Assembly (NCBI RefSeq): GCF_009914755.1
Contig: NC_060936.1
DNA length: 64,000 nt
Strand: one strand, 5' to 3'
Source: the human T2T-CHM13v2.0 reference genome, Homo sapiens
Shown: one piece after another, positions 44,114-45,070 of the stretch
Numbering within the stretch: position 1 is the first letter of the stretch
Layout: each line of letters starts with the position of its first letter
Notes under the pieces: model-generated
Databases searched by the model: none
Told to the model about the DNA's origin: nothing
Seen by the model: only the letters and a program-made list of their open reading frames with translations
Made by a program: the position numbers and the translations under genes

Positions 44114-45070
44114 GTCCCATTTCAGGCATTTAGGCAAAGCCTAGTAGAAGACAGGAAGGGCAGTGCTCTGCCAACTGTGTAGACGTGATGCTCCCTCCAG
44201 CTCCCACTTTACGTTCAGGAGATTTTGATATGGAATACAGATCTAACGTGTGACTAACTCTAGGGTATGTTTAATGACATTGTCGGCCCCTTCAGGACTT
44301 TTTTGGTTTGGTGTAGAAGTAGGTGTACAAGTACCTGGTATATCTGATACAGGGTTATTACTATTCTTGAACTCAAGTACAGTTTTTTTTTTTTAATTTT
44401 TTGAGTTAAGTGCTCTCATTTTGTTTTGCAGCATAATATTCCTTTTCTTAGCTTTCCTATGACTTTACTTAGCAACCTTTGCCAAAAGAAGTACAATATA
44501 CGATAGACTACTTTGAAGACACATACATTGGACACCTAAAATCAACAAGAGCAGAGAGGTATGGCATAATCTTTTTCATTTGTTATGTGTTGTTCCTCGA
44601 GTCAAACTAATCTTCTTAATGGCAGAAGCTAAAGCAAAATCATCCTCAAGTTAACTTTTAGGAAATTATATTGTAATATTACAGATATCTGATACCTTCA
44701 TATTTTAAGTACATTTTAAATAATAATAATTATTATTATTAACAATAATAGTGCAGTGGTACAATCTCAGCTCACTGCAACCTCTGCCTCCCAGGCTCAA
44801 AAGATCCTCCCTCCTCAGCCTCCCGAGTAGCTGGAACTATAGGTGCATGCTACAGTGCCCGGCTAATTTTTTATAGTTTTTATAGAGATGAGGTCTTGCT
44901 ATGTTGCCCAGGCTGGTCTTGAAATCCTGGGCTCAGTCAATCCACCCGCCTTGGCCTCCCAAAGTGGGATTACAGGCATGATCTACCACACCCAGCCTGT
45001 TTAAGTACTTTTGCTAACTGGATAATTTTTAAAAATCATTATTTAAGACTTTGGCAACCTCAAATTTTCA
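44114..45070 (+). pseudogene. Decayed Mutator/MULE-family DDE transposase fossil
   Basis: Colinear motifs across frameshifts: ILIWNT (44222), *GMFNDIVGP (DGTF-like, 44261), FLAFL (44445), LPKEVQYTIDYFEDTYIG (44479-44532), PKINKSREVWHNLF (44535-44576), HYLR (45037). Confidence 0.7.
44717..44997 (-). mobile_element. AluJ inserted in the MULE fossil
   Basis: Alu body 44751-44997 with degenerate AT tail; TSD tttaagtac on both sides. Confidence 0.88.

What the first reader, a model, noticed from the sequence alone, without database searches (positions are those of the whole stretch)
44114..45070. Cryptic Mutator/MULE transposase fossil, apparently not Ricksha
Seen: plus-strand translation across frameshifts gives, in order, VPFQAFRQSL (44114), VDVMLPP..TLRSGDF (44179-44226), ILIWNT (44222), *GMFNDIVGP (44261), GVQVPGI (44322), TQVQFFFFNF (44371), FLAFL (44445), QPLPKEVQYTIDYFEDTYIG (44473-44532), PKINKSREVWHNLFH (44535-44579), QKLKQ (44623), YRYL (44680) and, after removing an AluJ, HILSTFANW..HYLR (to 45048). 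Established: animal MULE/MuDR DDE transposases show the same order: ALRQ, RILIFxT, DGTF, PxxY, CFFH, LAFLP, YFExTYIG, PRTNNxxEGWHxxF, LKxEQ, DYLRxIA. The E at 44556 would be the catalytic Glu. Inference: an ancient, internally deleted MULE copy. Ricksha, the human MULE I know, reads WFENNYVHG and RTQNNIEAWH here as I recall, and I see no Ricksha TIRs. This may be a separate, poorly annotated mammalian MULE lineage or a dead domesticated transposase gene. The ORF track misses it.
Basis: partly seen in the sequence, partly recalled or inferred. Interest (0 to 1): 0.8.

Follow-up and report, generated by a model that had tools for sequence, protein, structure and literature searches.

The report
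Copied LIPJ gene fragment, MULE-like by letters
This stretch is a dead, roughly 1.1 kb copy of the start of the lipase gene LIPJ from chromosome 10, and its resemblance to a Mutator-type transposase rests on one short peptide block that may be coincidence or a very faint relic.

Summary
Against a profile of 60 real animal MULE transposases, only two blocks stand out. LPKEVQYTIDYFEDTYIG (44479-44532) scores 10.0 bits and PKINKSREVWHNLFH (44535-44579) scores 3.1 bits. They are the two best hits in the window, but the first has E about 0.06 per window, or thousands per genome. The other ten motifs score below zero.

Window 44401-45800, minus the Alu, is 85% identical to chr10:89471300-89472470. 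That region holds the upstream first coding exon of predicted primate LIPJ isoforms plus the start of intron 1. The YFEDTYIG block is the paralogue of that exon.

A T12-AA-T6 run abuts the left edge. The chr10 parent has AATAAA on its minus strand 17-18 nt inside that edge. This suggests retroposition of an antisense transcript.

There is no Pfam MULE hit, no TIRs, no TSD and no similarity to the human Ricksha-like fossils. In the chr10 parent, a DGTFK-like block sits in the same frame at about the right distance upstream (p 0.011-0.019). True MULE ancestry therefore stays open at about 25-30%. The feature is ordinary unless that ancestry is confirmed.

The parts
44114..44382 (+). This is flanking chr12 DNA and not part of the copied unit.
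   Evidence: No homology to chr10. All profile scores are below 0. The banded upstream test gives p 0.05-0.17. FFFFNF comes from the T-run.
44383..44402 (-). T12 AA T6 run abutting the left end of the copied unit. Inferred to be the poly(A) tail of a minus-strand retrocopy.
   Evidence: Read. chr10 has no T-run at the corresponding boundary. chr10 carries TTTATT (AATAAA on the minus strand) 17-18 nt inside it.
44401..44716 (+). Copied unit, part 1. Paralogue of chr10:89471300-89471655 (LIPJ upstream exon and start of intron 1).
44452..44558 (+). Pseudo-exon. Paralogue of the first coding exon of predicted LIPJ isoforms. AG at 44450-44451, GT at 44559-44560, and ACG at 44500-44502 where chr10 has ATG.
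44479..44532 (+). LPKEVQYTIDYFEDTYIG, the block that resembles MULE profile positions 334-352.
   Evidence: 10.0 bits, the best of 2895 hits in the window. 12 of 24 residues identical to P0091 and to P0124. Atlas top named clusters carry PF10551 in about 20% of members, at score 0.82.
44535..44579 (+). PKINKSREVWHNLFH in the -1 frame. Weak match to the MULE E..WH motif. It runs across the exon-type GT donor.
   Evidence: 3.1 bits, second best in the window. The chr10 copy has a stop and Y in place of W and H.
44713..44998 (-). Alu inserted after the copying, with target-site duplication TTTAAGTAC (44704-44712 and 45000-45008).
   Evidence: Empty site in chr10.
44998..45800 (+). Copied unit, part 2. 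Paralogue of chr10:89471633-89472470 (LIPJ intron 1).
45283..45640 (+). Fragment of an old high-copy interspersed repeat carried inside the copied unit.
   Evidence: 214 first-look candidates, 40 scored, about 66-81% identity..
45793..46090 (-). Second Alu, where the homology to chr10 ends.

Best explanation
Window 44401-45800 is a non-functional partial copy of the 5' end of the LIPJ locus on chromosome 10. It covers the upstream (first coding or 5'UTR) exon and about 1 kb of intron 1, including an old repeat fragment that already lay in that intron.

The copy was most likely made by L1-type retroposition of an unspliced RNA transcribed antisense to LIPJ. My estimate from K2P 0.166 and recalled neutral rates of 1-2.2e-9 per site per year is about 40-80 million years ago. 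After that it took an Alu insertion at 44713-44998 and was cut off or disrupted on its right side by another Alu and an L1 piece.

It has no open frame, no start codon and no annotated gene. The MULE-like letters are, more likely than not, a coincidence: one good 18-24 residue block plus weak neighbours, of a strength expected thousands of times per genome.

Shown: the paralogy, the exon identity, the T-run, the AATAAA in the parent, and the later Alu.
Inferred: retroposition, its direction (chr10 to chr12), the date, and that the MULE likeness is chance.
For: Paralogy:
- 44392-44721 and 44998-45800 align to one continuous chr10 stretch at 79-80% by BLAST. In a global alignment 928 of 1089 aligned bases are identical, K2P 0.166.
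- Nothing else in 10 kb of chr10 or 14 kb of the window matches except Alus.
- Both the chr12 and the chr10 versions of the first 300-860 bp find only each other in the genome, 2 of 2 first-look candidates each. The 29-aa peptide also finds only chr10.

Exon identity:
- The only 3 candidates among 5.77 billion proteins are predicted 'lipase member J' isoforms of three primates. Their first 20 residues match.
- The remaining LIPJ exons map 3-19 kb downstream on chr10.
- The block ends exactly at a GT donor.

Retroposition: T12AAT6 abuts the unit in chr12 only, and AATAAA lies on the minus strand 17-18 nt inside the boundary in chr10.

Chance reading of the MULE likeness:
- E 0.057 per window for the best block.
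- No Pfam family at E<=10 for 15 ORF pieces and 3 read-through frames of the window, or for 4 chr10 translations.
- HMMER gains nothing from a 185-aa read-through: 6.8-8.3 bits against 9.2-10.0 for the block alone.
- The chr10 copy shows no E..WH signal, p 0.42-0.86, as expected if the chr12 match is a winner's-curse pick.
- In simulated decay of two held-out MULEs, only 3 of 18 runs with a comparable best block had so little chained score.
- True human MULE fossils score 191-349 bits in the same DP across the three settings, against 26-36 bits here.
- No TIRs.
Against: - The two best profile hits of the whole window are adjacent, on one strand and collinear.
- 0 of 396 null 1.5-kb blocks reach the strict DP scores 27.3 and 25.7. 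At the lenient setting, 4 and 1 of 396 reach 33.2 and 35.9.
- 0 of 5516 null read-throughs reach 6.8-8.3 bits.
- The chr10 parent has NNTFKTVASIFELL in the same frame 129 codons upstream of the YFE block, where the profile expects DGTFK about 150 positions upstream. Banded test p 0.011-0.019.
- The chr12 downstream extension has p 0.006-0.015 at band 40-60.
- A family-blind language-model search puts MULE-bearing clusters first. The score of 0.82 is, by the tool's own text, only a lead.
- For retroposition: no target-site duplication was found, and the right end is disrupted.
- The null set is small: 151.5 kb in four orientations, half of them reversed sequence.
Confidence: 0.6

Rival explanations
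1. True relic. A very old (neutral distance about 0.3-0.4 per site) FLYWCH-type MULE transposase gene, not of the Ricksha lineage, lies at the 5' end of LIPJ on chr10. Part of it became the LIPJ upstream exon. The chr12 stretch is a later partial copy that carries only the C-terminal third (profile positions about 330-420).
For: - Top two profile hits of the window, collinear and adjacent.
- Exact DYFEDTYIG in a real MULE (P0124) and 12 of 24 identities to P0091.
- DGTFK-like block in chr10, in the same frame at nearly the expected spacing, p 0.011-0.019.
- chr12 downstream extension p 0.006-0.015.
- Multiplying the three probabilities gives about 0.5 chance occurrences per genome for this profile. 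This is my arithmetic and assumes independence.
- Atlas top named clusters are MULE.
Against: - The anchor alone is expected about 2800 times per genome.
- The extension tests were framed after the hits had been seen, and the downstream one fails at band 25 (p 0.57).
- The chr10 copy lacks the E..WH match.
- No Pfam hit.
- No signal for the FLYWCH, DFE or CxxH blocks.
- Read-through adds no score.
- Decay simulations rarely give one sharp block with so little around it, 3 of 18.
- No TIRs or TSD.
- No human MULE fossil is closer to the YFEDTYIG type: with P0124 as query, 24-36% identity over 92 matches, at many of the loci that P0006 hit.
Confidence: 0.27
2. Both the chr12 and chr10 stretches are independent insertions of an unrecognised low-copy interspersed repeat, for example a long 3' part of an old LINE subfamily. 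The high-copy piece 45283-45640 would be its most conserved module. LIPJ merely exonised one copy.
For: - The 3' part is shared at 65-68% with copies on chr15, chr17, chrX and chr4, and the chr10 copy continues into that family beyond 45800.
- One of 16 family loci (L014) has L1 ORF2 C-terminal motifs upstream on the same strand.
Against: - The first 860 bp have only these two copies.
- Both copies start at the same base, which random 5' truncation would not give.
- Longer family copies (L015, L018, L019) have unrelated sequence upstream of 45283.
- 85% identity between the pair against 65-70% to all other copies.
- The T-run is in chr12 only.
Confidence: 0.08
3. One reading: one internally deleted MULE element inserted at this chr12 site and spanning 44114-45070.
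For: All twelve peptides are present in the stated order.
Against: - 44114-44390 is not part of the unit shared with chr10 and has no profile signal.
- FFFFNF and FLAFL come from T-rich low-complexity DNA.
- No TIRs.
- The motif spacings are 40-75% shorter than in the profile.
Confidence: 0.03

Closest known systems
LIPJ (lipase member J) upstream first exon and intron 1, chr10:89471300-89472470 of this assembly
   Same: 85% nucleotide identity over 1089 aligned bases. Same exon-like block with AG and GT borders. 19 of 20 residues of the predicted N-terminal peptide of primate LIPJ isoforms are shared from the second residue on.
   Different: chr12 has ACG for the ATG. It has no downstream LIPJ exons, an Alu insertion and a T-run at its edge. 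It is not annotated as a gene. That the chr10 exon is coding at all rests on predicted models of three primates.
Animal FLYWCH-type MULE/MuDR transposases (Pfam PF10551 MULE), 60 proteins
   Same: One block (LP.E....DYFEDTYIG) and a weaker E.WH..F block in the right order. A DGTFK-like block in the chr10 parent.
   Different: No PF10551 hit. About 29 profile positions are missing between the two blocks, and there is a frameshift. Only E of the DDE triad can be aligned. No TIRs, no TSD, no family of copies. Total score is 26-36 bits against 191-349 bits for real human fossils.
Ricksha, the only MuDR families listed for human in Repbase (Kojima 2018, PMC5753468; passages read)
   Same: Same superfamily, if the relic reading holds.
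   Different: No nucleotide or translated similarity to ten human PF10551 loci. Those read WFKNNYVH and TQNSIEAWH where this reads DYFEDTYIG and INKSREVWH. That those loci are Ricksha is my inference. No repeat library was available.
L1-mediated retrocopies of unspliced or antisense transcripts
   Same: A poly(A)-type run at one end, a polyadenylation signal at the right distance in the parent, and a short, 5'-incomplete, dead copy.
   Different: No target-site duplication found. The antisense transcript itself is hypothetical.

Membership tests
MULE/MuDR transposase | Match to the Pfam MULE domain PF10551 (region DGTF to CxxH) | tested here: not met
   0 families at E<=10 for 15 ORF pieces and 3 read-through frames of the window, and for 4 chr10 translations. 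The genome-wide PF10551 search lists 12 matches of 33 candidates, none at these loci. HMMER's filters may drop very weak matches.
MULE/MuDR transposase | Collinear similarity over the catalytic core to real MULE proteins, beyond chance | tested here: inconclusive
   Best block 10.0 bits, E 0.057 per window, plus 3.1 bits. Strict DP beats 396 of 396 null blocks. Lenient DP is reached by 4 and 1 of 396. Extension tests give p 0.006-0.019 in one copy each and are not significant in the other.
MULE/MuDR transposase | DDE catalytic triad | tested here: not met
   Only the E (44556-44558) aligns. The first D reads N in the chr10 block NNTFK. No counterpart of the DFE block was found in either copy.
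MULE/MuDR transposase | Terminal inverted repeats and an 8-10 bp target-site duplication (feature recalled) | tested here: not met
   Only short AT-rich chance pairs in window 43600-46200 and chr10 L039 4300-7100. In so old a relic their loss would not be surprising.
MULE/MuDR transposase | Membership of a multi-copy family | tested here: not met
   Only one paralogue for the relevant part. The first-look filter of these searches is of limited sensitivity.
Ricksha | Nucleotide or protein similarity to Ricksha copies | tested here: not met
   tblastx and blastn against ten human PF10551 loci give noise only. The Ricksha consensus itself was not available.
LIPJ locus paralogue (gene-fragment copy) | Continuous nucleotide homology to the LIPJ exon and its adjoining intron, with the exon borders kept | tested here: met
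L1-mediated retrocopy | Poly(A) tail at the 3' end of the copied strand, with a polyadenylation signal in the parent | tested here: met
   T12AAT6 at 44383-44402 in chr12 only. TTTATT lies 17-18 nt inside the boundary in chr10.
L1-mediated retrocopy | Flanking target-site duplication | tested here: not met
   The 17-mer left of the T-run has no second copy within 3 mismatches in the window. The right end is disrupted by an Alu and an L1 piece.

The most novel reading that the evidence does not exclude
The upstream exon of human LIPJ and its chr12 copy descend from a second, pre-Ricksha lineage of FLYWCH-type MULE transposons in mammals. This would be the first trace of a non-Ricksha MuDR element in the human genome, with a piece of the dead transposase reading frame reused as a gene's first exon.
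Probability: 0.25. Interest if true: 0.5.

Novelty: new member of a known kind. Interest (0 to 1): 0.25.

Why it matters
As it stands this is an ordinary dead gene-fragment copy in a gene desert, and a worked example of how a striking motif can be borderline statistically.

If the MULE ancestry were confirmed, it would add a second MuDR lineage to the human repeat catalogue. Repbase listed only Ricksha in 2018 (PMC5753468, passages read). It would also show a transposase remnant exonised at the 5' end of a testis lipase gene. That would be a modest addition to knowledge, not a change of picture.

Tried and rejected
- Pfam scans of all small ORFs and read-through frames: nothing.
- tblastx against human MULE loci was first swamped by Alu. 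With the Alu left out it gave nothing.
- I first took the unit for a 5'-truncated LINE 3' end with a common 3' terminus. I rejected this when the chr10, chr15, chr17, chrX and chr4 copies were seen to continue past 45800 and the upstream 860 bp proved to be two-copy.
- L1 ORF2 motifs upstream of the high-copy family were found on the same strand in only 1 of 16 loci, which is not enough to class the family.
- Six family copies show no consistent terminal inverted repeats. The family stays unclassified.
Neither listed the chr12 or chr10 loci, though only 88 of 370 and 91 of 145 candidates were scored.
- More real human DNA for the null could not be fetched. The null therefore rests on 151.5 kb plus its reversed forms.
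- Earlier findings of the scan were not open.
- HMMER read-through of 185 aa added no score over the single block.
- No search for papers on LIPJ and transposons was made. The only literature search was for Ricksha or MuDR.

Full report
THE OBSERVATION

The Alu is real. It matches other Alus at 74-79%. It is missing from the chr10 paralogue. It is flanked by the direct repeat TTTAAGTAC at 44704-44712 and 45000-45008.

WHAT THE STRETCH IS

A DNA search of the window's own genome with 44100-44716 found one other place, chr10:89471291-89471647, at 79% identity. A search with 44998-45790 found chr10:89471633-89472451 at 80%. Together, 44392-44721 and 44998-45800 align to one uninterrupted chr10 stretch. 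In a global alignment, 928 of 1089 aligned bases are identical, with 97 gap columns and K2P 0.166. Nothing else in 10 kb of chr10 matches 14 kb of the window except Alus. The true left edge is TTGAG at 44401.

A search of 5.77 billion proteins with the 45-aa frame 44473-44607 gave 3 candidates. All 3 are predicted 'lipase member J' isoforms, of Theropithecus gelada, Rhinopithecus bieti and Pan paniscus. Their first 20 residues carry DYFEDTYIGHLKST and are followed by the usual LIPJ N-terminus. Mapping one of them on the genome places residues 1-23 at chr10:89471408-89471476 and the remaining exons from 89474654 to 89490973.

So the window block 44452-44558 is the paralogue of the upstream first coding exon of LIPJ. 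It has AG before it and GT after it, and ACG where chr10 has ATG. The rest of the unit corresponds to the first kilobase of LIPJ intron 1. Both versions of the first 300-860 bp find only each other in the genome, and the peptide finds only chr10.

THE 3' PART OF THE UNIT

Positions 45283-45640 belong to an old high-copy repeat: 214 first-look candidates, 40 scored, roughly 66-81% identity. Copies on chr15, chr17, chrX and chr4 share the unit's sequence up to 45800, and chr10 continues in that family beyond it. Longer family copies have unrelated sequence upstream of 45283.

The family could not be classed. L1 ORF2 motifs lie upstream on the same strand in 1 of 16 loci, and six copies show no consistent inverted termini. 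I read it as an older insertion in LIPJ intron 1 that was copied along with its surroundings.

HOW THE COPY AROSE (INFERRED)

In chr12 only, a run T12 AA T6 (44383-44402) abuts the left edge. In chr10, TTTATT, which is AATAAA on the minus strand, lies 17-18 nt inside the corresponding edge. This is the signature of a retroposed RNA transcribed antisense to LIPJ. No target-site duplication was found, and the right end is disrupted by an Alu (45793-46090) and an L1-like piece. A DNA-level duplication therefore remains possible. With K2P 0.166 and recalled neutral rates of 1-2.2e-9 per site per year, the copy is about 40-80 million years old. The Alu at 44713-44998 came later.

IS IT A MULE?

Pfam finds nothing at E<=10 in 15 ORF pieces and three read-through frames. 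A genome search with PF10551 finds 12 matches of 33 candidates, none here. Those loci read LAFLPADD, then WFKNNYVH, then TQNSIEAWH, and I take them to be Ricksha-like. They show no similarity to the window once the Alu is left out.

From one such locus I reached a real protein, P0004, and from it 9237 library proteins at E<=0.001. Sixty of the best 150, those of 440-520 aa, gave a profile of 471 positions.

- 44473-44607 scores 10.0 bits at profile positions 334-359.
- 44517-44651 scores 3.1 bits at profile positions 380-414.
- The next best hit anywhere scores 2.5 bits.
- Every other listed motif scores below zero.

The first hit has E 1.2e-5 per piece. That is 0.057 per window and, extrapolated, about 2800 per genome. 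Two real MULEs match it at 12 of 24 residues, and one of them contains DYFEDTYIG exactly.

The two blocks are separated by a -1 frameshift and lack about 29 profile positions that real MULEs have between them. The second block runs across the exon-type GT donor.

CONTROLS

A frameshift-aware profile-to-DNA alignment that I wrote was run at three settings, two strict and one lenient. The two strict settings gave the same target scores.
- Strict settings: 27.3 bits (chr12) and 25.7 bits (chr10), against 0 of 396 null 1.5-kb blocks.
- Lenient setting: 33.2 and 35.9 bits, against 4 and 1 of 396 null blocks.
- Five human MULE fossils read on their own strand score 191-349 bits across the three settings.

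Read-through translations of 185 aa score 6.8-8.3 bits, against 0 of 5516 null read-throughs. They score no more than the single block does alone.

Banded extension tests asked whether further collinear matches lie at the expected distance from the anchor:
- chr10 upstream: p 0.011-0.019.
- chr12 downstream: p 0.006-0.015 at bands of 40-60 residues, but 0.57 at 25.
- chr10 downstream: p 0.42-0.86.

The chr10 upstream signal is NNTFKTVASIFELL. It lies in the same frame, 129 codons before the YFE block, where the profile has DGTFK about 150 positions earlier. Pfam does not see it.

Simulated neutral decay of two MULEs kept out of the profile shows the signal is lost by 0.45 substitutions per site. 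Of 18 runs with a comparable best block, only 3 had as little chained score as seen here.

A family-blind language-model search puts clusters in which about 20% of members carry PF10551 first. The score of 0.82 is, by the tool's own text, only a lead.

No inverted termini flank either locus. A YFEDTYIG-type protein used as query finds many of the same Ricksha-like loci, more weakly (24-36% identity), and nothing closer.

WEIGHING

The anchor alone is unremarkable at genome scale. The chr10 DGTFK-like block is the one piece of evidence not subject to that selection, but I framed its test after seeing it.

Multiplying the three probabilities gives about 0.5 chance cases per genome for this profile. 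This assumes independence and rests on a small null. The number of real relics this faint is unknown. I put true MULE ancestry at about 25-30%, coincidence at about 60-65%, and the remainder on an unrecognised non-MULE repeat.

If the ancestry is real, the relic belongs to the LIPJ locus and only its last third was copied to chr12. It would be the first non-Ricksha MuDR trace in human: Repbase listed only Ricksha families in 2018 (PMC5753468, passages read).

VERDICT

This is a dead partial copy of the LIPJ 5' region. The Ricksha exclusion holds. The MULE reading is unproven and applies to at most about 100 bp of the 950 claimed.

Noticed in passing
window 45283-45640 (to about 45800 for one subtype): Old high-copy interspersed repeat: 214 first-look candidates, about 66-81% identity. 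Most copies span about 520 bp with clustered ends, a few are longer, and there is a GCCACATGTGGC palindrome near the family's 3' part in other copies. Its class was not determined.
   Followed up: partly
G000 chr13, chr14, chr15, chr20, chr21, chr22 short-arm or pericentromeric places listed (for example C14:6461131-6461802): At least eleven near-identical 672-bp MULE-transposase remnants (40-42% identity to P0006, only 1-3 stops). This is apparently one fossil multiplied by acrocentric or pericentromeric segmental duplication.
   Followed up: no
L029 = G000:C20:47612232-47615480: A 727-aa frame without stops gives a weak PF10551 match (26.6 bits, below the cut-off). From memory this is the ZSWIM1/ZSWIM3 region, a MULE-derived host gene. 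Not checked.
   Followed up: no
window 45407-45425: Perfect 19-nt palindrome GAAGGCTTTCAAAGCCTTC inside the repeat fragment. The chr10 copy lacks it.
   Followed up: no
window 46091-46524: An L1-like piece (recognised by eye, from memory) directly follows the Alu at 45793-46090. The two together end the homology to chr10, so the right end of the copy is rearranged.
   Followed up: partly
chr10:89471408-89471467 (L039 5409-5468): In human the LIPJ upstream exon keeps an ATG and an open frame in phase with the next exon, as in the predicted isoforms of three other primates. Whether it is translated is unknown.
   Followed up: partly
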